A stretch of DNA of 20,000 nt from an uncultured virus (IMG/VR IMGVR_UViG_3300028833_000149) (IMGVR_UViG_3300028833_000149:53005-73004); one strand, 5' to 3'; shown: positions 1-20,000, counted from the first letter of the stretch. A program made the numbers and translations. Notes: generated by a model from the sequence alone, not told the origin.

Positions 1-3000
1 TAATTGCGGAGCCATATCCTTTCAAATTACAATAAATTGTTTATCAATAGTTTGATTTATAATAGGAACGTATGCTGTATTAATATCAACATAACTAAAA
101 TTCTTATTTTCATCATAAACTGGGAATATTACAGAGAAATGGTTTGTCACTTTTTCTTCTTTTATTCTTCAGTCACTAGGAACAAAGATATCGCATAATA
201 AACTTGCTGCATAAGCCTCATTTCAATATAATTGAAGGTTTGACTCAATTAGCGCCGCACGTTCTCTCATTGGGACTAAGTTATTACCAGTATCCTCAAT
301 AGTATATTTGTATCAGAAATCTCCATTGGTAGCATTATTAAGTGCTACTCCATTAGATTGAATTGTTACTTCATATTTAAAATCTCCATAAGGACCATAA
401 CCGTGTAATTCATGAGGTTGATTGTCATCTGGTATATTAGATATATCCATATCATAAGCTATTATATCTGGAGTTATTGATTCACTATTATAACGATATA
501 AACGAATAGTCTGACTTATAGTTTTATCAAATACATCATAATTATATGTTTGATTAGTTTTATATAATAAGTTATTGAAAATTTGATTTATAGTATAAAC
601 TCGTTCATCTTGATCATTATACAATTCATATGTGTTATCTAATAAATGAGCTTTTAAATCATATCCAATTGATGATGGAGAAACTTTAACATTTTCTTTA
701 ATATAATATAAATTTTTAACTATATCAGTTTTATCATATTCTTTAGTTATATTAAAACTTCGTCCATTTTCATCACATAACTCACTTGTAAAAAACTCTT
801 TAAAAGAAGATGCTATATTTTCAACGACTCCATTTAAAATCAAATATATTACATAATTATATTCATCATATTCATCATCTGCTTTAATTCTACTTCCAGA
901 AAGAAATTCTCCTTCTTTTATTATATCATAATCAGTATATTCATTTAAATTATCTGGTCATGTATAATTAGGAAACGTGTTTTTGTATATTATTAAATAG
1001 CTTAAATCATCTTCAAGTGTGTTAAAAGTTGTTTTCTTTATATAAGTTTTTGTTTGTCTATATGTATAATTTTTAAATTTACTACCTTCCTCACCTTTAC
1101 CTTTAGCATTAAAATCTGCGGCAATATTACCAAAAGTGTATGCTAAAAATTCACTAGGATCATTTCCATCTACTGGCTTTGTTGTATAGAAAAACAAATA
1201 AGGGAAATCACTAATAAAATCTTCATGAAGTTCAGTAAGGCTTTCAGCTACCTTCGCAGTATCATCAACACTGCAATAAGTTCCGTTTCCTGCTAAATTA
1301 TAGTCGCTTGCATTATTGTTTTTATTAGATATCCTTGTATAGAAATTTTGATAATTAGTATTAGTAACTAATTGCATTTCTTTTCCATTTTTATCAAAAA
1401 TAGATGCTAATGGATATTCTTTTATGTAAAGTGAATCATTTTTACCTTTAGGACTAATATATGGACTATATTGTTTAAAAACTCTATCACTATCTTGACG
1501 ATGTGTAGGTGTTTTAGTATATCCACCTTGAACTAGAATATATTCTTTTCAATCAAGAATAGGAATTTGAGTTCAAGACAATAAACCTGATACAATATAC
1601 CATGACATAGTTTGGAAGTTATTAATTATACCTCAACCAGGATAATTTGTATGACCACTTAATTCATCTGGTCCATAATATGTTCTATTGGCAGTTTTAG
1701 GTTCAAAAGTACTATTAGTTTCAATTATTAAACTATCATTGTTATAAAACAAATCAGTTAAAGGTAAATTTTTAAATTTTTTATGAGCTTTAACATTTAA
1801 TGTATTACGATTACGATATAAGTAGTTTCTTAATATTTCAGAAGGGCTAATTTCTTGATAAAAAATATTTTTATTTTTAGAAAAATCTATTGTACCATCA
1901 ATCTCATTAAGTCCTTCTCTATCTTTATAAATTATATTATCTAATGCTATATCACTTTCTTGCTCAATTTTTTGTCCATTTATAACTATATAAGTTTCAT
2001 TTGATGAATAGAAAGTTGCATCCGCAAAAGGTCTTCCATCTTCATATAATTTGTTAAAGATTATATAATTTGAATCTCAATCATAGAATTTTCCAGTACA
2101 CCAATATTTATTATTATCACCATTATACTTAATATAAAAAGAGAAGAAAGTATTAGCTTCAGTTACTAATGTATGATCTAAGTTTTCAACATCATTAAAA
2201 CATATATTTAAGAAATCTTCTTTTTTTATAAAGCATACTTCACGTAAATAATTTATATCTTTATTATAATTATCTTCTGAACCGGTTTTTTCTAAAATAT
2301 CTTGATAACAATATACATTTATATCTTTATAATTGTTTTCAGTTAGTAAATGACTATCTTTATTAAAAATTGTATGTTGAGTATTGTTATAATATAGTTG
2401 AATATTATTATAATCCTTTACTCGATGTTCTTCATCGAAAATGAAGAAATTGCTATAATTATTTACAAAATCACTAGATAACATAGCATATTTGTCTTCT
2501 CTAAATGGCTCAAAATAATAGAAATTCTTTCTGTCATTACCTGAATCATTTTTAATATCAATAACAACGTGATAGTAATTATTATATAGCGGATCTAATG
2601 GAGTTTCAAAGTATTTTCTAAAATTATATAAATTTTTTAAACATCTTTGTCTTGCATCTAAATATTTTCTCATATAATCTGAAGTTGTTCCATATAAATC
2701 CATAAAAGTAGATGATAGATAAGAACCTTTTATATCTGTTTGAGATGCGTCTGTGGCGCCGCTAATATTAGATTGAAGTAAATTCCATCTTTGAAGTAAA
2801 TTATCCTTATCATAAGATTCAGCTTTTCCTTTTTTCTTATAAATGTCTTCTATGCTTGATACTTCAGCTCCAACCATATCTATATTATTAGTCATTTCCG
2901 CTATATATTTTGTTTGTGAATGTAATCTACTATAATAATTCTCTGCATTTAGTAATATATCAGAATTAATTTTTCTTAAATCATTATAAATTCTATTATT

Positions 3001-4569
3001 AATATCTTTTTCTTGAATCTTAGATAATAACCCTGCATTAATAAAATAGTTAAAATCAATCAATTTATTCTCTAATCAAGGAAGTTGATCCGCGATTCGT
3101 GCAAATTGTATATCTTCATCAGAATATTCTACTTTAAAGAATATAGAAATATCGTAATCTTTCAAATCACTATAATCAGCAAAATCATTTTCATTTTTTA
3201 CTGATATAATAATATTTGAACCACTTATTTCCATAGAAAAATTAGAATTATCTGGTGTTATAATTTTTAAATCACCAAAAATAGTACTAAATTGAATTTG
3301 ACTAACAGTGTTTTGTGTTTTAAAAACTTGTAAAGGATATAGTTTAAATAAGTTAATTTCTTCATTAGATAATGTATATGAAGTAAATTTTATACCAATA
3401 ATTCTATTGTTTTTTCTTATTAATGTAAAAGTTCCATTTGGTTTGGTTAATCTATACTGTGGTCCGTATAATATGTTTGTATACATTCCAGTATAATATT
3501 TACTAAATTTTCTTCAATAAGTGCTATCAAAATAAGTTATGAAAAAAGGACTTACTTTTGGTAAAGCAGTTATTACTTCATCAGAACTTAATGTCCTACT
3601 ATTTATATTTAAAACAGTTACTAATGAATCGGCTTGTTGAGATAAACTAAAAGTTTTTATATTTCTAAAAGGAGAATATTGTAATCCATTTACCATATCT
3701 TTTTTAGAAGGTTCAAATCAGAAATATGTTACTAATGTAATAAAATTACTCATATTTTCTGGTTCAAGTAATACAGTAGCAGTATTTAGTACCATACCTA
3801 TTTGTTCGCCTAATGATATTAATGCGCCATTTGCAGTTGTTGATGAACAACTAAAAGGTATAGTTTCATATAAATCTGCATTTTTCATAGTATTTGAATA
3901 ACTATTTTTTAATGTTTTTACTATTTTTTTATTTGAACTTTTTCTTGCAGTTGTATTTATTACAGTTCCATCATCACACAAATATAGAGGAACTTCTAAT
4001 TTTAAGTATTTATATGATATTTTACACTCATTAACAATCTTTTCTGTCCAATTGTCAATATTTAATGCACCAATAAAATCTTTTGAATTTATATCATTAT
4101 TTATTGTATATCCATCACTTTGTTTTGCTAATTGATAAGAGAAACTATCTTGACAAGTAAAATTATAAACAATGTTATTTTCAGTTATTGTATATGTGAC
4201 ACTTTTTACTGAAAATAATATTTTATTATTATAACTATATTCAAGTAATAATTGACTACCAATTTTAATTTTAGATGCGAAAGGATTATCTTTTCAAGTA
4301 TCATCATCTAAAATCATCTTATCAAGAGAAAAAGTTAAATCTTTTTGAGCTTGTTGGTGGATATTTAATTTTTCATTATAAGTATAAGTTTTTGTATATA
4401 TATTAGTTAAATTATCTTTTAAATTTTTTGTGTTATTTTCTTTTTCATATTGTAATAAGTCTTGATTAACATTATTACTATAAAATTCAGATATAACATT
4501 CTTAATATACTTATTAAGATTATCTTGGTCATATGCTTTTGTTAATAAGCTTAATTTAAAATATGCCAT
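1..4569 (-). CDS. Large tail-tip/baseplate hub (Tal-like) protein, >1523 aa, runs off the window edge; code 4
   Basis: Start ATG at 4569 with an AGGTGG SD. Seven track ORFs (4294, 3718, 3514, 3076, 2077, 958, 313) share one frame. Reading the gaps by hand gives no TAA/TAG down to base 1, only 13 TGA (4294, 3718, 3514, 3076, 2077, 1633, 1573, 1549, 958, 313, 223, 169, 22). Function is inferred from its position after the TMP and Dit-like genes and its hub-like N-terminus (LTFSLDKMILDDDTWKDNPF). Confidence 0.75.
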
Positions 4570-4580
4570 AAAACCACCTT

Positions 4581-6275
4581 CTAACTAAATATTATTTCAA
4601 AATTTTCTTCTATTGTTGGTGTACTTTCATCTCTATTTCAATTAAGACGAACTTGAAATTCACTTTCTTGTGCAGGTCTTTGATATGTAATAACATCTGC
4701 AATTAAATCTTCATATGAATTATCATCAGAATCTTTGAATACTGATTGAGTAACAATTGATGAATTTCCTTGCCAACGTTGATAACGAGGATTGTTTGGT
4801 TCGTTTTGCGGAACAAATGTGTCATCATTTTGTTTAACTTGTAGGTTAATATTATTATAATCAAAAATTGTTCCAGACTCAAAAGCGTCATTTCTATATC
4901 TTATTTTATAATCATAACCACTATTTTGTGAATGATAATAATATCTAGGAGCCATAACCGCAATTTGTATTGCATATGATAAACCAAAATCTAATTCATC
5001 ACAAGGAACACAATTGTAAATAATTACAGGGTCTCCATCCTTATCAAATCCTCCTATAAAATTCCAATTATAATATTGAGCAAGTGCGGATTCAAATATC
5101 ATAAAATGAGATACAGAAGGAATCGAATTTCTATCTAACTGATATTGAATATATCTATCAAAATAATTAATATTATCTTCTTCGTCTATTCAAACTGAAC
5201 GTCCATAAAATGCTGATTGATTTTTCCAATATTTAAAATATCAAATATCACTTTTTCTATTTAATACATATTGGTCTGTATTATATGAATAATAAATGTT
5301 TTCTCCATCTGTTCATACATATGCGCCATTAAAATTTGTTAAACCATTTCAAGTTTTTTTAGACCAAGTTGAAGTTGATTTGTCTAATACATATTGAGTA
5401 AGACCATTTGAATAATAAATATTATCTCCGTCTCTTCAAATTGCTCCACCACTAAAATTTGTTAATCCACTTCAAGTCTTATTTGTTCAGTATGGTTCTG
5501 GTTCTTCATCATCATTTACAATTAAGACTTTGTGTTTACTTGAAAGAGAATAATATATATTTTCACCATCTGTTCATATATCTGTACCATAAAAACTAGT
5601 ATCATCTAATCCAGTTCAAGTTTTTTCCTTTCAAGTTAAATCTACTGGATCTAATTTATATTGATAAGTACCACTTGAATAATAGGTGTCTTTACCATCT
5701 GTCCATATATTATATCCTTGTCCTTGTAAAGTACCGCCGCCTTCTACAGCTCATTCTTTAACTATTCATTTGCTTGTTGTTTTATCGAACATATAACTAT
5801 TTCTACCATTTAAATAATAAGTATTATTGTCATAAGTTCAAATACAAGAGCCGTTACTAATAGGTAAATCAATTGTATCTCTTATAAATCATCTAGATTC
5901 TAAATCATAAGCATCTTTTTTATAAATTGATGCACCTATATTCAAAGTCTCACTGTAATCTGCACCATATTGATATACATGAGTTGTTCTATTTTTAAAA
6001 CCTCATCTAAAAAATAACTTATAAATATCAATAGCATCATTTTCATTTTCATTAATTATGCTATCTTCTGTAATAACTGTATCATCTTTCTTAATAAAAG
6101 TATAAGTATTATCGTTATTCTCATTATATCCCAATAGTCTTCATTCAGGATTATAATAATGTAAATATTCATATAATGAATCAATACTATTTTCTAAAGA
6201 CAAAATATATTCTTTGTGAATTGCTTGTCTTTGTTGACTTAGAGGCCTTTGAACTGTAATATTAAAAAATTTCAT
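4581..6275 (-). CDS. 564-aa tail protein with six Trp-rich repeats (predicted beta-propeller; candidate receptor-binding protein); code 4
   Basis: ATG at 6275 overlaps the upstream stop (TAATG). The frame is open to TAG at 4581-4583 with 17 TGA and 5 TGG, and it includes track ORF 4638..5102. The ORF is certain under code 4; function is inferred. Confidence 0.7.
5131..5925 (-). repeat. About six degenerate tandem 40-46 aa coding repeats, consensus QYvLD.....W..KtW.gl..f.G..iWtDGeniYYS
   Basis: Examples are QYKLDPVDLTWKEKTWTGLDDTSFYGTDIWTDGENIYYS and QYVLDKSTSTWSKKTWNGLTNFNGAYVWTDGENIYYS. Nucleotide similarity is also visible (GGATTAACAAATTTTAGTGG vs GGTTTAACAAATTTTAATGG). Boundaries are approximate. 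Confidence 0.9.
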
Positions 6276-7000
6276 TATCTCACCCTCATAACAATATCAC
6301 TAAAAATAGGTTCGCTCGTATTAAAATATTCAATTTTAACTACAATTTCATCTTCAACATCATCATAAGTCCATTTTCAATTAGCATAAAATTCTTCATA
6401 CCCTGATTCTGATTTAATATAAAATTTAATTAATGGTTTTAATATTGATATTCCATCAATTTTCACACTTGAAAAACGCTTTATAAGATATGTTGGATTT
6501 TGTTCTGGACTTGGTGTAAAACTACTAATAGGTTCATCTAATAGATAAGCAGATTGTGATGTATCTATTTTTATAACACTCTCTATCGAACCTTCCTCAG
6601 GAGTGCTATTATATGTATAACTTAATTTTAATTGGTCATTGTCAGTATCATAAGTAATTGTTGGTTGATAAATACCTTTATTTTCAGCAGGTATATATAA
6701 TAAATTGCCATCTAATTGCTTATAAATTACATCTCCACGATAATATGTATCTTTACCATTAGTAATAGAATTTGCATTAACAATAGCGGATTCACCTATA
6801 TTTAATAATGCTAATTTTGAAGTAATATCACTATCACTTAATAATACTTGTGTAACATTGTATATATCTCAGAAGGAAACTTGTCTAGTAACATTTTCTA
6901 ATTTATCATATAATTTATTTAAAGCTTCTTTAATATCGTCAATTTCTTCAAATTTTTGTGTATTATAAAATTGAGTTTCTGTATGTTGTAAATTACTCAT
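6275..7000 (-). CDS. Hypothetical tail-region protein, 241 aa (MSNLQHTETQ...DIVMRVR); code 4; absent from the ORF track
   Basis: GAGGTG SD followed by ATG at 7000. Two in-frame TGA (6869, 6377). TAA at 6275-6277. It exactly fills the gap between neighbouring genes. Confidence 0.8.
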
Positions 7001-7010
7001 ATAATCACCT

Positions 7011-8150
7011 CTACACTAAAATAGCTTTTGCTCTACCATATGATACTGCTTTTATTTTACTATCTTCTGATAATGGAGACAACTTATAAAACTCTCAATA
7101 TAAATATATATCTCCAACTTCTTCATTCTTATTTACTTTCATCTTAGTAGTTTTCATATCATTAACCATTAAATCTCCATAGGTATTAGTTAATAATAAA
7201 TTTAATACTTTATAATCTGAATCTCCATATTGTAAAAATACCAATCCTGAAGTCGAATCATACTTAATTGAAATAGTTCTATCTAATTGATTAAAAGAAG
7301 TTGGTTCGCCATTTATTTGTTCTGTATCTTGCCAATTTTCAGTTTGCGGCATAAAATCTACTTCACATAATAAATCACAGTATTTTGTAACTTTATTTGC
7401 AGTTTCAGTATCTACTATTTCATTAACATCTGGTCCTATGTATAAACGTAATGATGGATAAGCATTAGTACTGGTATCTCCAGTAAAATAGAAAGACACT
7501 TCACTAACTATTCCAAAAGATAATTCTGAAAATGGTAATAAATCACTTGGTAATAAGCCACTAGAATTTTTTGGTAATCCAAGAATATAATAAGTATTAA
7601 CGTTACCATCAGTAATATAAGTATCTGTTTGAGTTCATACATATTGTCTTTGAGCTAATGCACATTGTTCTCCTTGAATTTCAAAAGTAATTGTATTTTC
7701 AGCCATATATAAATCTTTACCATTATCAACACCAATTACGGTTTTTACGGCTTCTTTCATACCAGTAGTCTTTGCTAAATAACATAAATTATTATCATAA
7801 GCAAAAGAAAGATAATCAATTTCATACGGACCTAGTGCCGCAATTAAACTACGATATTCTTCTGCGGTAACTCCATAAGTACAAATAGTAAAACTTACTT
7901 GCATTCTACTGAATTTTACGCCTGTTAAATTACCCATTGCGTGATCATATTGTGGTGAACTGTACTCATTAGAGAAGGAAGGCCCATTAACAAACTTAAG
8001 GGCACTTCCGTTATTTGTAATAAATGTATGATATGTATCTCACATATCTTCACCACGCCAATAAAATTTAGCATATTTATCAAGTCTACGACCAAGATAT
8101 TCTTGTTGCTTTTTTATTGTATTAACTTGTGAATAACTTTTTGTACTCAT
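7011..8150 (-). CDS. Putative distal tail (Dit-like) protein, 379 aa; code 4
   Basis: GAGGTG SD followed by ATG at 8150. It joins track ORFs 7635..7937 and 7095..7499 through TGA at 8040, 7635 and 7095, and ends at TAG 7011-7013. The Dit call comes from its position directly after the tape measure gene. Confidence 0.6.
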
Positions 8151-8161
8151 TATAACACCTC

Positions 8162-11100
8162 TTATGCAGATACATTTATACCACTTTGAATTATTGCGGC
8201 GATAATTGCATCTTTCAAATTACGTCCTTGCATTTCATTTCCACTTAATTGAATTACTTGGTCACCAATATTTAATGTTAAATTTCCACCTGTATCATTA
8301 ACGCTAATTTGACTTGAATCAATATTAGATACTTGACTACCAAAAGTAGCAAAGAAATTATTTAAGTCTAATTGCGCTTCATTCGCTGTTTTTGCTAAGA
8401 AACTGTCTGAAGTTAAGAAACTTGCTAATAATTCTTCACTTTCAGTTCCTCTTAATAAATTTAATAATTCTCTGTTATTTGCTAAAAGCTCATCGAATTT
8501 CTCACTAATCTCTGAAATTGAATCTTCAATATTTTGAATAACTGCTTCTTGTGCACGTTCACGTAAAGTATTTAATCTTTCTTTTTCTAATTCAGCAAAA
8601 GAATTTGTAAGTTCTTCTATTTGTGCTTTTGAAGACATACTTGTAGAACCAGCAAGTTTAGTTAAATTAGATACGAATAATTCTGCTTTTTCTTCATACT
8701 CTTCATCTTCTTGAGCTTGATTAATTGATTCAAAATATTTTTGATAAGCATCTTTTCTTTCTTCAAGAGATTTAGTTAAAGCATCTTGTTCTTCTTTAAG
8801 AAGTTCCTTATACGCTTCAATACGCTTATTTTCTTGTTCAACTAAAGTTTCTAAATCTACACTGAAGAAATCCTTACTTTCTAACTCTCTCATTTGTTGC
8901 TCTAAATATGTGACTAATGCCGCATTATATTCAGAGCCTTTTCTTGCCCTTTCAACTTCTCATTCTGCTCTCAATTCGTCAAGTTGTCTTTTTCTATTTT
9001 CTTGTAAAGTTTTATTTGAAGCAAGAGCTTGTTCAATTTGTTGATAATCTTGTGAGTTAAAAGCAGCTAATAATCTTTCTCCATCTTTACCTGAGAATAA
9101 CTCTCCATGCTCACTTAAGAATGTTGTCTTATCAGTCTCTGTCATAGTAGACCATTTTGATGCTGTTTCATAGAAACTTTTTACTGAATTTGTTAATTTA
9201 TCTACATTTTGTCCTATATTTTGAATACCAACTTGAATTGTATTACCAATTTGATTTAAAATTACATTATATGCTTCATCATAATCTTCCAATCCAGATA
9301 ATATTCCACCAAAAGATTCTTTCATTGCCATAGTAATGTTGCCATTATTTGCTGCAAGAGATTTAAAGAATGTGTCTGATATTATATTTTTATATTGTTC
9401 TTCAGATAATACTTCTTCAAGTTGTCCACTCACGCCTTGTTCTTTTAAGGTACGTAAAATTGATTGATATCCAGTATATAAATCATTTATTTCTTCATTA
9501 GTAATATTTAATTTGTCAATTAAATCTAATGCAGAAGCTCCCATTTGTTCAAATACATTAAACTCTTTAAATGCAGTAGAAATTGCTTTAAATTCCTCTG
9601 AAAATTCTCCTAAAGAATCTTTTAACATAACAAATGCTTCTGTTCTCTCTTTTAAAGATAAACTTTCATCTTGAAGGATATCCGCGGCAACACTTCCATT
9701 TATTTTTATAGAAGCAATTTCTTTTAATATATCTCTTATTTTAGTTGAATCTTTTAAAAATTCTTTTAACGTCTCATCTGAAACTGATTCAATGATTTTT
9801 TCCATCATTGTTCGTCTTGAAGTTTTTTCAACACTTGTTAAAGACGTGTCTTCATCTAAATAAGAATATAATGATTGTTTTGCTATAGTACGAGCACTTA
9901 ATCTATAAGAAGCATTTTCTTTTCAATCGTTAGAATTTGTCCTTAAAAGTACACCAGATAATTTTTCTCTATCTTCTCTTAATTTTTCATCTAATAATGT
10001 TTGATAATATTTTAAATATTCTTGTTTCTCACTATCATTTAAACCTTCATAATAGTCTTTTTCTGACATTGATAAAGAAGTATCAAGATTTTCTTCTTTA
10101 ACTGAAGATAAATTATCTGCAACTTCTTTTAAACTATCAGAAAGTTTTTGTGCGTCATCACTAGTTTTTATTAATTTATTATCTAAGTCTTCAATACTAC
10201 TAACTGCAGTTTTAATACTTTCTGCTCTTTTAGTTAAATTATAAATTTCAGCATTAATTTCATTCATTTCATCTTCTGCTGATTCACTACTACCTGCTAT
10301 CGATGCAGCTATTGCAACACCAATTAATGAAGCAAGTATTGCAGCACCAACTACTCATCCCGCAGCCATAGTAGCACTACCTGCCATTTTTCAAGCAGTT
10401 TTTGCTCTTTCTAATCCAACAGATTTTTGTAATTCAGCATTTTCTTTCTTAGTATATATAATTGCAGCATTAATAGCTCTTGCAATTAATTTTCAAAGAC
10501 CTCATACAGCTAAAATTGGAGCAGCTAAACCAAGAACAGTAGATTTTAAATTATCTACTAAATGTTCTTGACTTTCTAATAATGATAATTGTTCTCCATA
10601 TGATTCAGAAACTGCTTGAGTTTGTTCATACTTTAATTGTTCTGCTTTGTAATTGTTAAGTTGTTGCTCTTGTATTAATATCTCTTTATCTAATTCTTCA
10701 GTAGATTCTTTATTTTCTAATGCTTGAAGTCTTTGTTTTTTTAATTCTATTAAATAATCTTCTGTTTGTGTAATAAGTCCCTTACGTTTTTCGTAATTTT
10801 CTTTTTGAGACATAATATAAGCATCTGCTTGTATCTTTTTTCTTTTTAATTCTATTTTAGCTTCTTGTTGTGTATACTGTAATTGTAACTTTGCTATTTT
10901 TGCTTGTCTCATTTTATTGCCTAACATAGTCACAGCCACACCAGCAAGCACAACTGCAAGTGATACTAAAACCCATTCCTGACTAAGAATTTGATTAAGA
11001 AGATTTAATACACCAGTTACTTGATTAACTAAAAATACAATAAAATCACTATTACTTACAGTTGAAATAATTTTTTCCCAAGAAGTAGCTAATCTATTTA

Positions 11101-12901
11101 AAGCAGCTTCTAGTCCTTGAGTATAAGTCGCCATTTGTGCCATTGTAGCACCAGCTGAACGAGCAGATATTTCTTGTAATTCAATAACTCTTTCGTAATC
11201 ACTCATCATTGCAATTAAACGTGATTGTTGACGAGTACCTGCCAATGCTTTTGCAATAGCAGCTTGTTGATTAGAATTTAATGAATCCCATTTTTTACCC
11301 AAATCATCCAACACATCTTCAGTAGAACGTAAATCTCCATTAGCGTTTCTTAACTGAATACCTACATATTCTAATTGACTTTCAACATTATTTAAATTAA
11401 TACCATCTTCAAGCGTTTCACCATAGTCTGTAATTTCACGCATACGCGCAATAACTGTCTTTAACGCAGTACCTATAGTTTCTGGCGCTTCACGTGTTGT
11501 TTCAAGACCTTTAGCAAGTAACGCAGTAGTATAATCAATTGACATACCTGCTAAATTAGCTTGAGATGCAACCTTACTTAATGCTATCGCAATTTCCTCA
11601 TAAGATGTAGCGGCATTTGCTGATACTGCTGCAAACTTATCTGAAACAATCATAGCTTGATCAGTACTTAGTCTAAAACCATTTAATGCAGTAGTTAAAT
11701 AATTAATTGAATCTGAAGTGTTAATTGCAGCAACTTTTGCGGCAGAAATCGCAGCTTTAGCAAGTACTAATGCATCTTCAGTACTTTTACCTTGACGTAC
11801 GAATTCTGTTACGGCTGCTGATACTTCTTTTGTTGTACCACCAATTTCAATAGCTAAATCTTGATAACTTTTTAATAGTTGATAAACTTCTTTACGAGTT
11901 TTACCAGTAACCATCGCTTGTTCAGTTAAAGATTTATCCAAGTCTATTACTGTACTTCTAACTTCACTCATCGCTCTACGAACTAATCTTAACCCAACAG
12001 TTCAAAGACTTAATTGCTTAGTTAATTTTCCTATAGATGAAGCAGAATTAGAAATACTCTTAACATTTGTATCAAGAAGAGTTGATTCTCCATTAAGTAT
12101 AGTTTGATTACGCTCTGATTCATTTAAATTATTATACATATTTTGAATATCAGTTGAAGTGTCATGTAATGCTGGATTTACAACTGTATTTCTATATGCA
12201 TCATCGCTATCTATTTTATTTTTCTTTTCAAATTGTCTTCTTTCTTTAATTGCATCTTGTGTCTCTTTTAATTTATTACCGTATTGTTCTATATCTTTAT
12301 TAGCTTTATCTTGCTCTTCAATCGTTTCATTATAAGTATTAATAAGTTCCTGTAATTTTGATGTAAAAGTTTTATTAAGAACTCTACCATCTTTTATTTG
12401 ATTACCTTCTGAATCGTAATAAGTTAATTTATCAAAGCCTGTTTTTGCTACAGTACTTAATCTTTTAAGATCATGCCCTCCATTTGGACCTTTTACTGAA
12501 ATACCTTTAGTTGATAAAAGATTAAAAAATTCTTCGTCTTTATTTTTTAATTTAACAGTTGTTTTAGATTTTGTTGCTTTCGCTTCATCAATCTTTTTGG
12601 TATATTCATCTTCTGATTCATATAATTTTTGCATTTTTTCAGTAACTGTCGTCGCATTCTTAGATACTTTTTCTAGTATCTCTTGAACTTGTTTAAAAGC
12701 GTGATTGAATTTATCTAAATCACTTCTTGACATTTCAGTCTGTTTAGCAAGTTCTTGCATTTCTGATATATATGCATTAAAATTATTTATTGATTTTTCA
12801 GATGGAAAGGCATTTTTTGCTATTCCTTGTTTTCCAGCTTCACTTAAATTTTTAACATCAGTTTCAATGGAGCCATCAACTTTTATTTTTAATTCTGCCA
12901 T
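8162..12901 (-). CDS. Tail tape measure protein, 1579 aa, with a TP901-type core domain; code 4
   Basis: Five track ORFs are in one frame, joined by 7 TGA (12002, 10502, 10493, 10391, 10355, 9923, 8960), and end at TAA 8162. It carries typical tape-measure motifs (ETTREAPETIGTALKTVIARM, KWDSLNSNQQAAIAKALAGTRQQSRLIAMM), long coiled-coil stretches and hydrophobic segments. GAGGTG SD. Confidence 0.93.
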
Positions 12902-12928
12902 CTATCATCACCTCTATGGCAATTAAAA

Positions 12929-13330
12929 TTAGTTAATTTCTTTATTTTTATCTCTTTCGTTTAAAATCCTTTGATTTTTAATAATATCAGCACCGCCCAA
13001 TTCTTTAAACTCTTCCAATTGAGTTAATGTCGCTTCATTATTGGCTTCTAAAATAGATCCACCTTTATCAAGTATATCTGCAAGTTTTTCAGCATCTAAA
13101 TTATTAATAATATCATTAATTTTATCACTTATTGCTTTTATATTAGTTAAATAGAATACTCTAGCATCTTTTACTAAATCCATTAAATTAATTTTAGTAA
13201 TTTTATAAAAATCACTTTGCTTATATTCTTTTTCAAAATCTTTTAATTTTAATAATACATCAAAGAAATTATCAGTTTCTTCAAGTATTTCTTTTAATTT
13301 ATTGTTTAAATATTCATTAGTTAATTCCAT
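12929..13330 (-). CDS. Small helical protein, 133 aa, possible tail assembly chaperone
   Basis: AAAGGA SD precedes ATG at 13330 (MELTNEY), which is preferred over the track start at 13390. TAA stop. It lies immediately before the tape measure gene; function is positional only. Confidence 0.5.
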   Translation of the reverse strand: MELTNEYLNNKLKEILEETDNFFDVLLKLKDFEKEYKQSDFYKITKINLMDLVKDARVFYLTNIKAISDKINDIINNLDAEKLADILDKGGSILEANNEATLTQLEEFKELGGADIIKNQRILNERDKNKEIN

Positions 13331-13349
13331 AATATCATTTTCCTTTCTT

Positions 13350-14069
13350 TTAATCTTCTCAACCAATATAATTTTCGGTTGTATCATCATTTATAACTAA
13401 AAAAGTTAAATCAACTGCGTTAGCATTTGAATTAAAATATAAAGATTTATTTACTTGAACTACCGCTTTATCTATATGTATCCAAGTTTCAGTAGTTTCA
13501 TCATCTTCATTAGAAATAGTAGATATATCTAAAGTTACATAAACATTGTTTCTTTTATCAAGAGAATAAAGATTATTTGTAATAACTTCATATACAACTG
13601 TATAATATGCATCTGCATTATCTACTACAATTTCGTCCTCATCTAATGTTGAATATGCTTTTTCAAGCGTTGGCGCCGCATTTTCATCATCAGCATAGAA
13701 AACATATACTAATTTCTTTTGTTTTCCTAAACCTTTAGTAAGATATAATTTATAATCTTCAGAAGATAAGATTTTTTCCTGGAAAGTTACCGAAAATCCT
13801 TCTTTTTTTAAATAAATTAGATTCAAAATCTTATCTGTGAGTGTTACATTATATATTGAAAAACTATTAATTTTTTCTGTTGCGTATCCAGCATTTCTGT
13901 CTGTTCCAGCCATATCAACACTACGAGAATTAAAATTAATAACACCATTTTCACCATGTATGATAGTATATGGCTCGTGGTCATATGTTATTTTATAATC
14001 TCCAATTGGGTCAGAACTGTATGCACGAATAATACAATCGATTTGATTTCCTATCTTATGTGTTGCCAT
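13350..14069 (-). CDS. Tail-region protein, 239 aa, possibly a divergent second tail-tube-fold protein
   Basis: GAGGTG SD followed by ATG at 14069 (MATHKIG). TGA at 13359 is read through to TAA at 13350-13352 (…YIGWED). The C-terminal beta-strand pattern loosely parallels the tail tube protein. Confidence 0.5.
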
Positions 14070-14097
14070 ACTAACACCTCTTCTTTTCTCTAATAAT

Positions 14098-14126
14098 AGT
14101 ATAGACCACAAAATTGAAAATATCAA
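14098..14126 (-). promoter_or_regulatory. Sigma70/SigA-type promoter, TTGATA-N17-TATACT
   Basis: -35 TTGATA at 14126-14121, a 17-nt spacer and -10 TATACT at 14103-14098. Each hexamer is 5/6 to consensus. It is intergenic, just downstream of a terminator and upstream of an SD. AT-richness raises the chance-match rate. Confidence 0.6.
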
Positions 14127-14142
14127 CTATGGAGATGTGGCA

Positions 14143-14177
14143 AAATAAAAAGACTCACGATTTTCATCGTAAGTCTT
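14143..14177 (-). terminator. Intrinsic terminator after the major tail gene
   Basis: Minus strand reads AAGACTTACGAT-GAAA-ATCGTGAGTCTT then TTTATTTT. This is a 12-bp stem with one G-U pair and a GAAA loop, about 10 nt after the stop. Confidence 0.85.
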
Positions 14178-14187
14178 AAATTAGTTA

Positions 14188-15087
14188 TTAGTCTTTTAGA
14201 CCGTTATCCTCTATAATTTGTGCATTAGTAGCATAATCTAATCTAGGTAAAATAGTATAGAATGTACCAGTTATAACGCCATCTTCGTCTCCTGCTGTTT
14301 CATCATCACCGATAAGAATTTTAACTTCATTTAAGTCACCATTCATATCAAATACAGTAGCATCTCCTTCTGCATCTTGAGTTAATGATAATAATGAGTC
14401 AGATAAGAAGTCATAGAAAATAATATATGCTTGAACTTGCTTACCAGTGTTAGCATCAACAAGGAAAGTATCACCAACAACAGTTTTATGACCTGCAAAA
14501 GTAGTTGTAGCATGTAATGCATCAGTAGCACCTTTAGTTAAAGTAGCATCAGTCGCTAAATCTGTTCTAAAATATTCAACAGTTAAACCTGTTAAAGCTT
14601 CTAGAGCTTCTGCGTTACCTAATGCATTTTGCATTTCAAGACGAGCAGTCTTACCATATTTAACTAATGGAGAAGCGTTTTGTCCACCAGTAATAGTTTT
14701 AGTAGGACCTTCTTGAGTAGCATTTGCAGTCTTTAAGTACTTTAAGTAAGAAATTTCCTTAGTCATTAAATATAATGCAATAATTTCATTAGCTTTTAAA
14801 TCTTCAAAATTAATTTTTGCATTTTCATTTAACTCATAAGTGTAAGATCCTTCAGATTCTTCAGATTCACTTCTAGTAACAAAAGTATTCTTAATATTAT
14901 ATAAAGCTTCTAATTGAGTATTGGTAAAAGTTTTTGTTGCTGTATGATCTTGAAGTTCTTTCATTGTCATACCATCATAAACATCATAAATCTTTGCGTT
15001 CATAACGGTAACAATACCAAAGTTTCTTAAAGCAGAGTTCCAAGCTGCACTACTATTTTTTAAATTACTATAAGAATTTGTAGCCAT
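14188..15087 (-). CDS. Major tail (tube) protein, 299 aa
   Basis: Intact ORF with a GAGGT SD, a TAA-TAA stop and its own terminator. Tube-like motifs include TITGGQNASPLVKYGKTARLEMQNAL and LTQDAEGDATVFDMNG. It lies between the tail completion region and the tape measure. No TGA; the single Trp is TGG. Confidence 0.8.
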   Translation of the reverse strand: MATNSYSNLKNSSAAWNSALRNFGIVTVMNAKIYDVYDGMTMKELQDHTATKTFTNTQLEALYNIKNTFVTRSESEESEGSYTYELNENAKINFEDLKANEIIALYLMTKEISYLKYLKTANATQEGPTKTITGGQNASPLVKYGKTARLEMQNALGNAEALEALTGLTVEYFRTDLATDATLTKGATDALHATTTFAGHKTVVGDTFLVDANTGKQVQAYIIFYDFLSDSLLSLTQDAEGDATVFDMNGDLNEVKILIGDDETAGDEDGVITGTFYTILPRLDYATNAQIIEDNGLKD

Positions 15088-15106
15088 CTTTATACCTCAT
15101 TTTTAA

Positions 15107-15841
15107 TTATTTTATAAAGAAATTGGGTGTTTGTCCCTTTTTCAAATTGCCGGAAGCGTAAGCCATTTTGGTTACGTCATAAGACACTGACTGTGCGGCA
15201 TAGGTATATAATCAGTGAATTTGAGCCATTGTTTGATTAAATAAATAATCAAATGTGAGAGCAGGAATTTGATAAGATATAGTAAGCAAAATTTTTAAAA
15301 TTTGCTCAGTATCTCCACCGTTCTTGTTTTTGATTTTATTGACTTGCTTTTCAAACTCTTTTTGAGCCAGATAGAGTTGTCTAGCAGCCTCATTTTCAAA
15401 AACAGGTGTTTTTTCCTCTTTTTCTCCACAAGATAATTTTAAAATATTTATGATATAATTTCAAATATCTGATGTAATAATAACATCATTTGCAATAAGT
15501 TCTTTTTTCTTAAAATCAAAAAATAAATTATGAATTAATGTACTTAATTGCTCACGTAATAATGATACTATTTTAGTATATTGAGCATACATACCAAATT
15601 CAAAAATTAAATTTTTAATTTCTGTTAAGCTATCTTCTGATTGAAATTGAGTTGGTAATAATTTCTTTCTATACTCATCTCTACAAATTATTGTATAACA
15701 AGTTGCTCATTCTTCATTAGAGAAAAAATTTTTTAAAGATTTTAAATATAAAATAATTACTTGATTACCAATAAAAATTTTTACTTCTTTATTGTCTTTT
15801 ATAAATAAATTTAAAATCGAATAATTACTATTAATTTCCAC
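15107..15841 (-). CDS. Hypothetical morphogenesis protein, 244 aa (MEINSNYS...TPNFFIK); code 4; absent from the ORF track
   Basis: GTG start at 15841 overlaps the upstream TAG (TAGTG), with an AGGGG SD. Three TGA (15707, 15461, 15212). TAA at 15107-15109. It fills a 750-bp apparent gap. Confidence 0.8.
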
Positions 15842-16353
15842 TATAAATCAGCCCCTTTCGAAGGTTGGTCTGAAATTTGGAATTCAATCTTATAACCAAA
15901 TAGATAATTAGAATATGAAATAGCAGTAGAAGAAAGAACTTCAAGTTGTCCTGAGCAACTGAACTTTGTACCATCTATTAAATCAACTATTTCTGATTCT
16001 AATTCCATTAAACGTAAATTATGGTCTTTTAATACTAAATGGTCTAAATCTGAACAAATAAAAATAGAACCAGAAAATAAATTATTATTATCTTTCTTAT
16101 CTAATGTTACATCTGTTGCAACATTAATTACCATAAAAGTATTTCGTCCCATTTCTTTTATTCCTGTTTCACTCAAGGGAGAAATAGAAATATACTTGTT
16201 ATCCATTAATTGTTTGAAAGTAAGCGGAGTAAAATCGATTGATAATGCATCAATCGAATCTACCACTAATAATCTTTGAATAATTTCATTTTGTGAAAAA
16301 AGACGGCTTAACTCTAATGGTAATTTTTTAATGTTCTTAAAATTTTTAACCAT
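15841..16353 (-). CDS. Putative tail completion/terminator protein, 170 aa
   Basis: Intact ORF. ATG at 16353 lies one base after the upstream TAG. Size, position and the RLMELESEIVDLIDG helix followed by beta strands fit tail-completion proteins (inference). Confidence 0.55.
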   Translation of the reverse strand: MVKNFKNIKKLPLELSRLFSQNEIIQRLLVVDSIDALSIDFTPLTFKQLMDNKYISISPLSETGIKEMGRNTFMVINVATDVTLDKKDNNNLFSGSIFICSDLDHLVLKDHNLRLMELESEIVDLIDGTKFSCSGQLEVLSSTAISYSNYLFGYKIEFQISDQPSKGADL

Positions 16354-16354
16354 C

Positions 16355-17185
16355 CTATTCACCGTCCTTTGTATAAGTTATAGTAACTATTGTACCTTGT
16401 TGCTTAACTTCAATTTCAACTATATCAATTCCAAAAGGAATTGAGAATTTAACTAAATTGCTTGTTCTAGAAACAACATTTAATACATTACAAGAAGTTC
16501 TAAAATATCCATTTTCAGTTTCAACTTCATATATCTTATTTGGAATAATTATATAATCTGAATCATCATCATATTGAACTTCTTCCGCTTGCTCTATTAT
16601 AGGCTCTTTGTCTACACGAGTTTCAATAACATCTTTACTCATAGTAGTTGGAGTAACTGAATAATATGTTACGCCTGGATGAGTATAATTATCAAACTCT
16701 TGAATTAATCAAGCTCTATCAGCAATCATTACTTTATCATTGTAATCAAATGGTTTTCCTGCGGTAACTAATAAAGGTTTTGCTAGTGATTTAATAAAAG
16801 ATTTTTCTCTTAAACTTACATCAATATAATCATCTTTCTTAAAATACCATCAAGTACCATCAGCTTCTATATTACATAAAAGGGCATGATATTTTCTAAA
16901 TTTTACATCTTTAATAATAATGATTTCTTCATCAATTAAAAAATGTAAACCTTTAGCGTTCCAACAAGAGCCAATTTGAATTGGTTCGTTGTATGGAGTA
17001 TAAATATATCCCTCATCATTTTCTTGTTTATTATATACATAAGCAAGTTGAGTAACTGTATCGTCTGCATCACTAATCATAGTAATAGATGCATAACCTA
17101 ATGCGACAAAATCCGCATTTACACTCTTTTCCGATTTGTTCATCAACTCATTACGTTGTTTAAATCTCTCAAACGAACTAGCCAT
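16355..17185 (-). CDS. Putative head closure (stopper) protein, 276 aa; code 4
   Basis: AGGTGA SD followed by ATG at 17185. It joins track ORFs 16850..17194 and 16355..16642 through TGA at 16850 and 16709 (DRAWLIQEFDNYTHPGVTYYS) and ends at TAG. Function is positional. Confidence 0.55.
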
Positions 17186-17687
17186 TAATATCACCTACCG
17201 CTGGACGCTTTGATGTATTAACTCTACTATAATGCTCTTCTAACTCTCTTGCATCCGCACGATAAGTGCTATATTGTTTAATCCACTTATCTATTGCATT
17301 AGCTTTTGAGAAAGTTTTTATGTTTGAATCAGTATAAATGTCTTCATAATTATTGGAATTAGACATTAATCTTTCGCACCAATATACTTTCATTCATGCG
17401 ATGATAATCGATACCTCAGCATACTTAACTTCATCTGAGTTGAAATATGCATGAGGTACTCCATCTTGATCATCATCAGTAACTTCTACGGTATTACCGT
17501 TGTCGTCGGTTTTCGCATAATAAGTGGTGTAGTCTAATGAGGTATGAGGAAATTTAAAAGCAGATATGGCACGACATGCTAAATAATAGCATTCTTCATC
17601 TAACATATCTTTTGTAATTACGCCATAATATGAACCTCTTATTGTATCCCTAAAAGCGGGATATAAACAATCATCTCATCTTTGCAT
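17178..17687 (-). CDS. Putative head-tail adaptor/connector, 169 aa; code 4
   Basis: GAGGTG SD followed by ATG CAA AGA TGA (codon 4 is TGA). A second TGA at 17394 directly abuts track ORF 17178..17393 in frame (IIIAWMKVYWCE). It is helical and ends at TAG. Function is positional. Confidence 0.6.
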
Positions 17688-17710: not shown

Positions 17711-18205
17711 TTATTCTTCGTTCAAAGAGAATGATACTTTTAATGTTTGTTCAAGCATTTGCTTTACACCAACAGTAAGTTTATCAATGTTTGCTTTTGC
17801 TATATCCATAACTTTGTCTTTACCAAAATCTTTTATTGCAGATTCGATTGCTGCTCTGTTACCCTTTTGTAGGCGGGTAAGAATAGTTTCATTTGTTTTT
17901 TCATCTGCGGGTACAAAGTCTAATTCATCTGCGAAATAAAGATTGGCTTCTTTTGCAGCTTGTAACAATTCATTGGTGTCACTAAAAGTGAAATACCCTT
18001 TCTTAAATAATCTATAAACATCGTTATTAGTAAAAACGCCTAATGCTAAACTGATTGGCATAATTATTTCTTTATTTGTATTGCTTGCACCTAACTTAAT
18101 TAATCTTACATTTGAAGGATTATCATAAGGTGATAAATTAAAGATAATTAAATTTGGTGTTGTGTTAATCATTCTAATTGTTTTGTTAAAATTTACTTCG
18201 GACAT
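17711..18205 (-). CDS. Hypothetical protein following the major capsid gene, 164 aa
   Basis: AAAGGGGA SD lies 8 nt before ATG at 18205. The ORF is intact with a TAA stop and no Trp codons. Confidence 0.8.
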   Translation of the reverse strand: MSEVNFNKTIRMINTTPNLIIFNLSPYDNPSNVRLIKLGASNTNKEIIMPISLALGVFTNNDVYRLFKKGYFTFSDTNELLQAAKEANLYFADELDFVPADEKTNETILTRLQKGNRAAIESAIKDFGKDKVMDIAKANIDKLTVGVKQMLEQTLKVSFSLNEE

Positions 18206-18261
18206 ATTCAAAGTCCCCTTTCTGATAATTTTTATTTTTGGATTTTTATTTTAAAATTAAA

Positions 18262-19421: not shown

Positions 19422-20000
19422 TTACTTTAAGAATACATAAGTATATGATGGTTGACCATCAGCAAACTTATTGCAATCTAAGAAATCATCTAAACAATAT
19501 TGAGCATGATCAGTCTTTGTAGAGTCACCATCAATATAGTTTCTAGTAATGCATGCGATACGACCATCAGCAATAGCATCTGCCATTTGATCGCTATCTG
19601 GAGCATAAGTAGTAGTGAATTCATCACCAGGAATTAATTGTACTAAACGAGCAGGATCTTCAGTGATTTCTGCAGCATAGTAGCTATATCCACCAAATGG
19701 TAATAATTCTTCAGTATAAGTTACAAATAATGGAGCTGTTTCATCAGCATTAGTTGCATAATCAATATAACCATCAGCAGTTAATTGAGCTAATTGACCA
19801 TTTTCAACAAATAATTTACCAGGTACTTTTGTAGTGTTGATTAACTTATTAGCTGCAGCGATTGCTGTTGCATCCTTTAATGTACCATCAGCGTTATAAA
19901 CACCTTTTGGTTCAACTTGTGCTACAACGAAGCCAGGTTGTAAACCTTTTAAGTTATTAGGTTCAATAATGTTGAATTTTGGTAAAAAATCAAAAATATT
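19422..20000 (-). CDS. Capsid decoration/minor head-like protein, >=192 aa, start just outside the window; absent from the ORF track
   Basis: The frame is open from base 20000 (NIFDFLPKFNIIEPNNL…VENGQL…LIPGDEFTTT…YTYVFLK) to TAA at 19422-19424, followed by TAG. It has high-expression codon bias and lies directly upstream of the capsid gene. Confidence 0.7.
   Translation of the reverse strand, partial: NIFDFLPKFNIIEPNNLKGLQPGFVVAQVEPKGVYNADGTLKDATAIAAANKLINTTKVPGKLFVENGQLAQLTADGYIDYATNADETAPLFVTYTEELLPFGGYSYYAAEITEDPARLVQLIPGDEFTTTYAPDSDQMADAIADGRIACITRNYIDGDSTKTDHAQYCLDDFLDCNKFADGQPSYTYVFLK

What the first reader, a model, noticed from the sequence alone, without database searches (positions are those of the whole stretch)
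1..17687. Phage structural operon written in an alternative genetic code: about 50 in-frame TGA codons read as Trp
Seen: nearly every short minus-strand track ORF stops at TGA and the same frame resumes. Allowing readthrough gives 15 abutting genes, and all 14 visible gene ends are TAA or TAG. Hand count of TGA per gene: 13, 17, 2, 3, 7, 1, 3, 2 and 2 in nine genes, against about 21 TGG in the same genes. The amino acid can be read from the window itself. ATA TGG ACA GAT GGT (5703) matches ATA TGA ACA GAT GGT (5574) and GTA TGA ACA GAT GGA (5313). ACT TGG TCT AAA AAA ACT TGA (5364) matches ACT TGA AAG GAA AAA ACT TGA (5631). Established: code 4 is used by Mycoplasma/Spiroplasma relatives, and stop-recoded gut phages are known, so the phenomenon is described but this lineage may not be.
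Basis: partly seen in the sequence, partly recalled or inferred. Interest (0 to 1): 0.88.

Follow-up and report, generated by a model that had tools for sequence, protein, structure and literature searches.

The report
Phage late genes reading TGA as tryptophan
This is the tail and head gene block of a large gut phage that writes many tryptophans with the stop codon TGA and carries its own TGA-reading tRNA, a kind of phage recoding that has already been described.

Summary
Twelve abutting minus-strand genes in window 1-17687 contain 50 in-frame TGA, 23 TGG and no in-frame TAA or TAG. All 14 visible gene ends are TAA or TAG.

TGA means Trp. TGA and TGG alternate in three repeat columns of one window protein. 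TGA exchanges mainly with TGA/TGG in a 49%-identical recoded relative. All 5 TGA columns of the phage's PFL and NrdG are W-dominated in bacterial-type homologues.

The window is the end of a 73-kb fragment of a phage of at least 103 kb with a tape-measure protein. Its capsid-like protein is distantly like those of SPbeta-like Firmicute phages. The phage encodes a tRNA with anticodon UCA, which ARAGORN mis-types.

TGA is nearly absent from the left-end and replication blocks (3 TGA against 80 TGG) but is 79 against 40 in the structural block. This fits the published model of stop-recoded phages in standard-code hosts and resembles its "Agate" clade (passages read). The host's code was not shown.

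Verdict: a new member of a known kind. The odd suppressor tRNA and TGA's avoidance of ancestral Trp columns in late genes are modest extras.

The parts
1..4569 (-). First 1523 codons of a 1773-aa late protein (the gene ends outside the window, at genome 52252); 13 in-frame TGA and 4 TGG in the window part. No family match; probably a distal tail or baseplate protein, judged by position only.
4581..6275 (-). 564-aa Trp-rich repeat protein (five units of about 41-46 aa, motif [IV]-W-x-D-G...Y-Y). It has 17 TGA and 5 TGG, the densest TGA use in the window. Each of three repeat Trp columns mixes TGG and TGA.
   Evidence: no Pfam or PHROG match
6275..7000 (-). 241-aa late protein, 2 TGA, 1 TGG.
7011..8150 (-). 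379-aa late protein, 3 TGA, 2 TGG.
8162..12901 (-). Tail tape measure protein, 1579 aa, 7 TGA (aa 300, 800, 803, 837, 849, 993, 1314) and 4 TGG.
   Evidence: PF10145 E 2.8e-31; 18 PHROG families, 16 of them tape measure; 120 full-length homologues at 47-76% identity listed
12929..13390 (-). 153-aa ORF upstream of the tape measure, no TGA. The real start is probably the ATG near 13330, which follows an AAAGGA ribosome-binding motif.
13350..14126 (-). 258-aa protein. Its single TGA lies 3 codons before the TAA, so it is ambiguous between sense and stop.
   Evidence: weak DUF6836 match
14188..15087 (-). 299-aa virion structural protein (possibly the major tail protein, by position), no TGA.
   Evidence: phrog_2729 E 1.6e-08
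15107..15841 (-). 244-aa late protein, 3 TGA, 0 TGG.
15841..16362 (-). 173-aa late protein, no TGA and no TGG.
16355..17194 (-). 279-aa late protein, 2 TGA, 2 TGG.
17178..17687 (-). 169-aa late protein, 2 TGA, 2 TGG.
   Evidence: phrog_3853 E 3.6e-10
17711..18211 (-). 166-aa head-region protein, no Trp codon of either kind.
18309..19406 (-). 365-aa probable major capsid protein, 0 TGA, 2 TGG. It is 22-30% identical to proteins of SPbeta-like, Enterococcus and Clostridioides large phages and of the TAG-recoded phage Phass-1.
   Evidence: phrog_4088 E 1.7e-42 and phrog_12438
19422..20000 (-). C-terminal 192 codons of a 193-aa head-region protein (complete in the longer record G001), no TGA.

Best explanation
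The window is the late (tail and head) operon of a large, low-GC (29%) tailed phage with a tape-measure protein. Our contig (73 kb) and an overlapping IMG/VR record give at least 103 kb of it. In this phage UGA is translated as tryptophan. The likely decoder is a phage-encoded tRNA with anticodon UCA at genome 14051-14148, outside the window. Its acceptor stem and discriminator look Trp-type, and it is presumably charged by the host TrpRS. The left-end genes and the replication module avoid TGA and can be read by an unmodified standard-code host. Structural and lysis genes, homing endonucleases and some auxiliary enzymes carry TGA. Those proteins can only be made full length once the suppressor is active, so recoding acts as a translational timer or lock on late functions. 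The host is most likely a standard-code Firmicute (Clostridia-like). Shown here: the open frames, Trp as the meaning of TGA, the tRNA(UCA) gene, and the uneven distribution of TGA. Inferred: charging by TrpRS, the host's code and identity, and the regulatory purpose.
For: (1) Frames. There are 50 TGA against 0 TAA/TAG in frame across 12 genes. Whole-contig coverage by ORFs of 100 aa or more rises from 0.645 to 0.883 with TGA as sense, against 0.675 with TAG as sense. The 188 TGA in 126 ORFs are spread evenly along the genes, not piled up at their ends.

(2) Amino acid.
- PFL: the 3 TGA columns are W in 67 of 71, 77 of 78 and 80 of 80 residues aligned from 80 bacterial loci, and W in the two PDB homologues aligned.
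- NrdG: the 2 TGA columns are W in 94 of 118 and 104 of 118.
- RNase H: the TGA column is W in the best PDB hit and Y in E. coli.
- Recoded relative G002: 41 proteins, 14,191 aligned positions, 49% identity. Our TGA pairs with TGA 21, W 12, Y 6, F 5, G 2, other 15 (n = 61). Our TGG pairs with W 57, TGA 15, Y 7, F 7, other 11 (n = 97).
- Three repeat columns in window gene 4581-6275 mix TGG and TGA.
- A strain variant turns TGA into TGG at 5889.

(3) Decoder. Rfam tRNA match of 59.5 bits with anticodon loop CU-UCA-AA. The sequence shows A1-U72, G5-C68, A9 and G73; that these are Trp identity elements is recalled, not tested. A preprint passage reports Trp incorporation for all 13 phage tRNA(UCA) analysed in E. 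coli extract (PMC12636597, passages read).

(4) Code switch. TGA:TGG is 2:35 in the left block (both TGA lie in one doubtful antisense ORF), 1:45 in the replication block and 79:40 in the structural block. Fisher p is 1.3e-15 for replication against structural. Of 126 ORFs, 55 (44%) carry TGA; the preprint gives clade means of 26-71% for phages of standard-code hosts and 90% for code-25 phages.

(5) Host hints. The closest PFL homologues (75-77%) are in Clostridia MAGs. Capsid relatives are Firmicute phages. A Shine-Dalgarno core lies upstream of 59 of 126 ORFs, against 4% background.
Against: - The host was not identified, so its standard code is inferred, not shown.
- The suppressor tRNA carries an unusual 25-nt variable-region insertion with only a weak stem. 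Its function and charging are untested.
- No RF1 or TrpRS was found in the 106 of 126 ORFs scanned with Pfam, but the genome is incomplete.
- In late genes, none of 16 TGA columns is W-majority in standard-code-type relatives. There the Trp reading rests on exchange with a recoded relative and on internal repeats, not on distant homologues.
- The two PhoH TGA columns align to A and V in the single PDB homologue. The five exonuclease TGA sites give P, F, two gaps and one unaligned residue.
- TGA-bearing genes also sit among enzymes in the 8-31 kb region (16 of 28 ORFs), so 'late genes only' is not clean.
- Some close homologues in the protein database may themselves have been translated with code 4. 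For NrdG I therefore also counted only the 111 rows at 51% identity or less, with the same result.
Confidence: 0.75

Rival explanations
1. The phage infects a host that itself uses code 4 (a Mycoplasma/Spiroplasma-type bacterium of the animal gut) and simply shares the host's code. No code switch takes place.
For: TGA = Trp is exactly table 4. The GC content of 29% is Mollicute-like. No release factor or TrpRS was found. No host was identified.
Against: TGA:TGG is 1:45 in the replication block and 2:35 in the left block, against 79:40 in structural genes. A code-4 host gives no reason for that. The phage carries its own tRNA(UCA). PFL is closest to Clostridia, capsid relatives infect Firmicutes, and only 44% of ORFs carry TGA.
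Confidence: 0.12
2. TGA is read as glycine (code 25), as in phages of Absconditabacteria or Gracilibacteria, or as another residue such as Ser, Cys or Sec.
For: The tRNA(UCA) D-arm also occurs in phage tRNA-Gly genes. Its long variable region recalls type II tRNAs (Ser, Sec), and ARAGORN calls similar phage tRNAs SeC.
Against: No residue in the 3 PFL TGA columns is G, S or Sec: 224 of 229 are W and the other 5 are K (2), C, A and R. In NrdG no residue is G or S. Against G002, G occurs 2 times and S 0 times in 61. The acceptor stem has A1-U72 and G73, not the U73 recalled for tRNA-Gly. With 188 sites and no SECIS search hit among the Rfam results, selenocysteine is implausible.
Confidence: 0.03
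3. The TGAs are genuine stops: a decaying prophage, pseudogenes, or sequencing or assembly errors.
For: Table 11 does break the genes.
Against: Only TGA interrupts the frames: 50 TGA against 0 TAA/TAG. The sequence is identical in an independent sample (X3) and in an RNA-library contig set (X4). The same pattern is kept in a relative at 49% protein identity, with 21 shared TGA positions.
Confidence: 0.01

Closest known systems
'Agate' clade of TGA-recoded gut phages (Borges et al., preprint 10.1101/2021.08.26.457843; passages read)
   Same: Animal-gut origin, about 127 kb, TGA read as Trp, and suppressor tRNA(TGA). DNA replication genes stay in standard code, while structural and lysis genes sit in several recoded modules. 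Homing endonuclease genes are rich in TGA; ours are GIY-YIG genes with 2 and 5 TGA. A transmembrane protein in the lysis cassette is recoded; ours is the holin plus a 151-aa protein whose C-terminal stretch looks hydrophobic by eye, 2 TGA each.
   Different: Membership is untested because no Agate sequence was available for comparison. Our genome size is known only as at least 103 kb. Our suppressor tRNA has a 25-nt variable-region insertion, which the passages I read do not mention.
phAss-1 / proposed Phassvirus group (PMC10607447; abstract and passages read)
   Same: Large gut phages with a long tape-measure protein (siphovirus-type, per the paper), distantly related to SPbeta-like and Enterococcus EF1-like phages. 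The capsid-like protein is 27.6% identical to ours. They show stop-codon recoding with suppressor tRNAs and are predicted to infect Clostridia.
   Different: They recode TAG, not TGA, and the relationship is distant.
NCBI table 4 organisms (Mycoplasma, Spiroplasma) and their phages
   Same: UGA read as Trp through a tRNA-Trp with anticodon UCA; low GC.
   Different: In those organisms the code is genome-wide and belongs to the host. Here TGA use is confined to part of a phage genome that carries its own tRNA(UCA).
'Jade' phages with a TrpRS-RF1-tRNA 'code change' operon (same preprint; tested pairs in PMC12636597)
   Same: TGA-to-Trp recoding of lysis and structural genes in phages of Firmicutes.
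   Different: No TrpRS or RF1 was found in the 103 kb available.

Membership tests
Stop-recoded (alternatively coded) phage, TGA to Trp | Coding density and gene length rise when TGA is read as sense, and no other stop interrupts the frames | tested here: met
   Coverage 0.645 to 0.883; 50 TGA against 0 TAA/TAG in frame
Stop-recoded (alternatively coded) phage, TGA to Trp | TGA columns align with Trp in homologues | tested here: met
   PFL 224 of 229 and NrdG 198 of 236 residues are W; TGA/TGG exchange with G002. Not met in late-gene columns against distant relatives (0 of 16 W-majority)
Stop-recoded (alternatively coded) phage, TGA to Trp | Phage-encoded suppressor tRNA for the recoded stop | tested here: met
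   RF00005 match of 59.5 bits, anticodon UCA, genome 14051-14145
Stop-recoded (alternatively coded) phage, TGA to Trp | Recoded codon concentrated in structural and lysis genes, early or replication genes readable in standard code | tested here: met
   79:40 against 1:45 and 2:35, p 1.3e-15
Stop-recoded (alternatively coded) phage, TGA to Trp | Host uses the standard code | not testable with these tools
   Only indirect hints: PFL nearest to Clostridia, Firmicute-phage relatives
Stop-recoded (alternatively coded) phage, TGA to Trp | Peptides with Trp at UGA | not testable with these tools
   No proteome data on hand
Phage of a code-4 host (uniform table 4) | TGA used as the Trp codon throughout the genome, early genes included | tested here: not met
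   0 TGA in 18 left-end plus-strand ORFs and 1 in 12 replication ORFs
Code 25 phage (TGA = Gly) | TGA columns align with Gly | tested here: not met
   G in 0 of 229, 0 of 236 and 2 of 61
'Agate' clade (Borges et al.) | Placement in the clade by large-terminase phylogeny | not testable with these tools
   No Agate sequences in the collections searched; Pfam did not recognise a terminase in the record
'Agate' clade (Borges et al.) | Genome of about 127 kb with replication genes in standard code and recoded structural and lysis modules | tested here: inconclusive
   At least 103,156 bp after merging; G001 estimated 71% complete at 79 kb; gene pattern as described
Trp-type opal suppressor tRNA | Trp identity elements (G73, A1-U72, G5-C68, A9; recalled from the literature on E. 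coli and B. subtilis TrpRS) with anticodon UCA | tested here: inconclusive
   The elements are visible in the sequence, but no isotype-specific model was available and charging is untested. The 25-nt variable-region insertion is atypical for tRNA-Trp
SPbeta-like large siphophages of Firmicutes | Shared capsid and tail module | tested here: inconclusive
   Capsid-like protein only 22-30% identical

The most novel reading that the evidence does not exclude
The suppressor may belong to an undescribed class of phage opal-suppressor tRNAs. These have a Trp-type 7/5 cloverleaf with G73 and anticodon UCA, plus an expanded variable region of 22-46 nt. I saw this layout in ours and in four other low-GC IMG/VR records whose frames open when TGA is read as sense (G003-G006). 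Three of them share a hairpin loop UGUCCAAAG or UGUCCAUAG, and TGA/TGG exchange between G003 and G006 again indicates Trp. ARAGORN calls these tRNAs SeC, Phe or Leu-with-intron. That could help explain why only about 35% of TGA-recoded phages had a detectable suppressor. The extra arm, together with the terminator-like hairpin that abuts the 5' end of our tRNA, might gate or insulate the code switch. Linked to this, TGA in late genes avoids ancestral Trp columns (0 of 16, against 6 of 12 for TGG). This suggests TGA codons were gained as deliberate translational locks rather than by TGG-to-TGA drift.
Probability: 0.3. Interest if true: 0.6.

Novelty: new member of a known kind. Interest (0 to 1): 0.35.

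Why it matters
Annotating this contig with table 11 shreds its tail, baseplate and lysis genes, so any pipeline must switch to table 4 for it. Biologically it is one more well-resolved example of a phage that reserves a stop codon for its late genes. It has unusually clean internal evidence for Trp and a clear split between TGA-free replication genes and TGA-rich structural genes. The atypical suppressor tRNA, and the way TGA avoids conserved Trp positions in late genes, are small new handles on how and why such recoding evolves.

Tried and rejected
I used ORF coverage and homologue columns instead.
- **PDB search with NrdG** found nothing.
- **PDB search with the exonuclease** gave one weak homologue. 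It is uninformative for the 5 TGA sites: P, F, two gaps, one unaligned.
- **PhoH.** The single PDB homologue shows A and V at the two TGA columns.
- **Distant capsid-linked relatives (L009-L085)** have no W at 9 late-gene TGA columns. They neither support nor contradict Trp, because those positions vary.
- **Theta/HDV-like ribozymes next to the tRNAs.** No Rfam match at E up to 1.
- **tRNAs in records G001 and G002.** None found. Both records are incomplete, so this does not show absence.
- **D-arm pattern scan** found only phage tRNA-Gly genes. I rejected this as evidence for Gly, because the acceptor stem and the homologue columns disagree.
- **Circularity.** No terminal repeat in the contig and no end overlap in the merged 103-kb sequence.
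- **Whole-tRNA fold** scores no better than shuffles (z 0.24), which is usual for tRNAs and not informative.
- **The consensus scan** found no terminator near the tRNA, because its loop limit excludes this hairpin. I folded the hairpin separately.
- **Literature search on long-variable-arm suppressors in phages**. Of 131 papers holding at least 3 of the 4 terms, 12 were listed, and none of those listings describes such tRNAs. I did not read those papers.
- **RNA-library run X4** holds identical contigs, but contigs cannot show transcription.


Full report
**Observation.** Under table 11 the window breaks into 24 ORFs of at least 80 aa, the longest 489 aa. With TGA read as sense, the same minus-strand frames fuse into a gap-free series of 15 genes. 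One is a 1579-aa protein and another is an open-ended 1523-aa one. My counts of in-frame TGA per gene are 13, 17, 2, 3, 7, 1, 3, 2 and 2, total 50. TGG occurs 23 times in the same 12 genes.

In those genes the reading frame holds 50 TGA but no TAA and no TAG. The two other frames hold 689 TAA, 294 TAG and 444 TGA. All 14 visible gene ends are TAA (9) or TAG (5).

The sequence is not an artefact of one assembly:
- A contig of run X3, from another sample and study, is letter-identical over 5057-6204, which spans 15 TGA codons.
- Contigs of an RNA library (X4) are identical where they cover.
- Diverged relatives occur in two further runs.
- One of the 40 listed strain differences (289 more were not shown) converts a TGA to TGG, at 5889.

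**What the DNA is.** The window is the last 20 kb of a 73,004-bp virus record with 29% GC. An IMG/VR record (G001, 79,069 bp, estimated 71% complete) is 100% identical over the overlap checked. It extends 30,152 bp beyond our contig's end, so at least 103,156 bp of this phage are known. No terminal repeat was found in the contig and no end overlap in the merged sequence.

The window encodes:
- a tape measure protein (PF10145, E 2.8e-31; 16 tape-measure PHROGs);
- virion structural proteins;
- a probable major capsid protein (phrog_4088, E 1.7e-42).

Just outside the window lie a tail fibre with a Peptidase_S74 domain, a holin, and a 151-aa protein whose C-terminal stretch looks hydrophobic by eye. 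The rest of the genome carries these replication genes: GyrA and GyrB, DnaB, primase, a DHH-family (RecJ-like) protein, PolIII alpha, ligase and a UvrD-family helicase. It also carries NrdD/NrdG, ThyX, PhoH, RNase H, an HPr-like protein and a pyruvate formate-lyase.

The capsid-like protein is only 22-30% identical to proteins of SPbeta-like, Enterococcus, Mammaliicoccus and Clostridioides large phages and of the TAG-recoded phage Phass-1.

**TGA means tryptophan.** I translated TGA as X so that alignments were not biased.

Window evidence:
- The 564-aa repeat protein has three conserved Trp columns in its repeats. The first reads TGG once and TGA four times. The second and the third each read TGG once and TGA three times.

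Evidence from a recoded relative:
- Record G002 has a capsid-like protein 53% identical to ours, and its frames also open with TGA as sense.
- I compared 41 proteins over 14,191 aligned positions at 49% identity.
- Our TGA pairs with TGA 21, TGG 12, Y 6, F 5, G 2 and others 15 (n = 61).
- Our TGG pairs with W 57, TGA 15, Y 7, F 7 and others 11 (n = 97).
- The two codons therefore exchange with each other and share Trp's substitution profile.

Evidence from standard-code homologues:
- The three TGA columns of the phage PFL are W in 67 of 71, 77 of 78 and 80 of 80 residues aligned from 80 bacterial loci. None of those loci has an in-frame stop. The same three columns are W in the two PDB chains aligned.
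- The two NrdG columns are W in 94 of 118 and 104 of 118. The result is the same for the 111 rows at 51% identity or less.
- The RNase H column is W in the best PDB hit and Y in E. coli.

Gly, Ser and Cys are essentially absent from these columns, which rejects code 25.

Less favourable results:
- The two PhoH columns are A and V in the single PDB homologue.
- The exonuclease sites are uninformative.
- The seven tape-measure TGA columns are variable in 120 full-length homologues, with W in 124 of 840 cells. Three of the four TGG columns are nearly invariant W.

**The decoder.** ARAGORN reports four tRNAs. The fourth, 98 nt at genome 14051-14148, it calls Phe(aaa) or Leu(caa) with an intron. 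The Rfam tRNA model matches it at 59.5 bits with the anticodon loop CU-UCA-AA. It treats 25 nt in the variable region as an insertion.

The tRNA has a 7-bp acceptor stem with A1-U72 and G5-C68, plus A9, discriminator G73 and an encoded CCA. I recall these as TrpRS identity elements; I did not test them. A preprint reports Trp incorporation for all 13 phage tRNA(UCA) analysed in E. coli extract (PMC12636597, passages read).

The variable region forms only a weak 3-bp stem. A hairpin of -9.7 kcal/mol followed by U5 ends one base before the tRNA's 5' end (z = -4.4). A 12-of-12 sigma-70-like promoter lies about 740 nt upstream. No HDV-like or theta ribozyme was detected beside any of the four tRNAs.

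**Code switch rather than a uniform code.** TGA:TGG varies sharply by genome block:

| Block | TGA:TGG | Note |
|---|---|---|
| Left 8 kb | 2:35 | both TGA lie in one doubtful antisense ORF |
| Replication | 1:45 | |
| Exonuclease-holin-fibre | 18:9 | |
| Structural | 79:40 | |

Heterogeneity over all seven blocks gives chi-square 90 (p = 3e-17). Replication against structural gives Fisher p = 1.3e-15. Of 126 ORFs, 55 (44%) carry TGA, and TGA positions are spread evenly along the genes.

A host that itself used code 4 would give no reason for these gaps. The published model does: a phage that starts in the host's standard code and unlocks late genes through its own suppressor (preprint 10.1101/2021.08.26.457843, passages read).

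[quoted passage not shown] In them the replication genes are in standard code, the structural and lysis modules are recoded, and a homing endonuclease and a lysis-cassette transmembrane protein are rich in TGA. All of these features are seen here. I could not test clade membership.

Host hints point to a standard-code Firmicute but do not prove it. PFL is closest to Clostridia MAGs at 75-77%. The capsid relatives are Firmicute phages. A Shine-Dalgarno core precedes 59 of 126 ORFs, against 4% background.

**What is mildly new.**

First, long variable regions are not unique to our suppressor. A scan for its 17-nt anticodon arm found 29 places. Among them were five 7/5 tRNAs with anticodon UCA, G73 and variable regions of 22-46 nt. 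For four of these records (G003-G006), ORF coverage rises markedly with TGA as sense. Between G003 and G006, TGA pairs with TGA 22, W 9 and others 4, so TGA is Trp there as well. ARAGORN typed those it recognised as SeC. One literature search listed nothing on such tRNAs; I saw the listing only.

Second, in late genes TGA avoids ancestral Trp positions. None of 16 TGA columns, against 6 of 12 TGG columns, is W-majority in standard-code-type relatives (p = 0.0025). In PFL and NrdG, 5 of 5 TGA columns are W-majority. The late-versus-enzyme contrast among ancestral-Trp columns is not significant (0:6 against 5:7, p = 0.11). The sample is small and I have no firm explanation. It would fit TGA codons being gained as locks at tolerant aromatic or hydrophobic sites.

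**Verdict.** The phenomenon and probably the lineage type are already described, so this is a new member of a known kind.

Noticed in passing
outside the window: genome 27635-29907 (L002:7635-9907): The phage pyruvate formate-lyase is split. A 675-aa body ends half-way through the glycyl-radical domain (Gly_radical profile positions 2-50). The rest of the domain (positions 52-106) is a separate 77-aa ORF immediately upstream, next to NrdD and NrdG. A solved chain (38la_A, 687 aa) ends at the same point. The closest bacterial homologues are in Clostridia MAGs (75-77% identity).
   Followed up: partly
outside the window: genome 14020-14050 (L001): A stable hairpin (-9.7 kcal/mol, z = -4.4) followed by U5 ends one base before the 5' end of the tRNA(UCA). 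It lies just after a GIY-YIG endonuclease gene, and a 12-of-12 sigma-70-like promoter lies about 740 nt upstream. It could gate expression of the suppressor.
   Followed up: partly
L101, L104, L106, L112, L091 (records G003-G007): Other IMG/VR phage contigs carry tRNA(UCA) genes with a 7-bp acceptor stem, G73 and variable regions of 22-46 nt. Three share the hairpin loop UGUCCAAAG or UGUCCAUAG on covarying stems. In G003-G006 ORF coverage rises markedly when TGA is read as sense.
   Followed up: partly
window 13350-13362 (minus strand): The only TGA of gene 13350-14126 lies three codons before its TAA, so the protein is 255 or 258 aa depending on the code in force. The next gene probably starts at the ATG near 13330, behind an AAAGGA motif, and not at 13390.
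   Followed up: partly
outside the window: genome 13645-14004 and merged coordinates 79306-80349: Two GIY-YIG endonuclease genes carry TGA (2 and 5 codons). One abuts the suppressor tRNA. The other sits on the opposite strand inside the late operon. The published account of Agate phages likewise notes a TGA-rich homing endonuclease.
   Followed up: no
P0023: A full-length tape-measure homologue (57% identity) is filed by a public source under a Methanobrevibacter MAG. This is probably a binning artefact of a related phage. It was annotated at full length, so that relative's gene presumably lacks in-frame TGA.
   Followed up: no
outside the window: genome 7307-7570 (L001): The phage encodes an HPr-like phosphocarrier protein (PF00381, E 7.3e-13) in the TGA-free left block. 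This is an unusual auxiliary gene.
   Followed up: no
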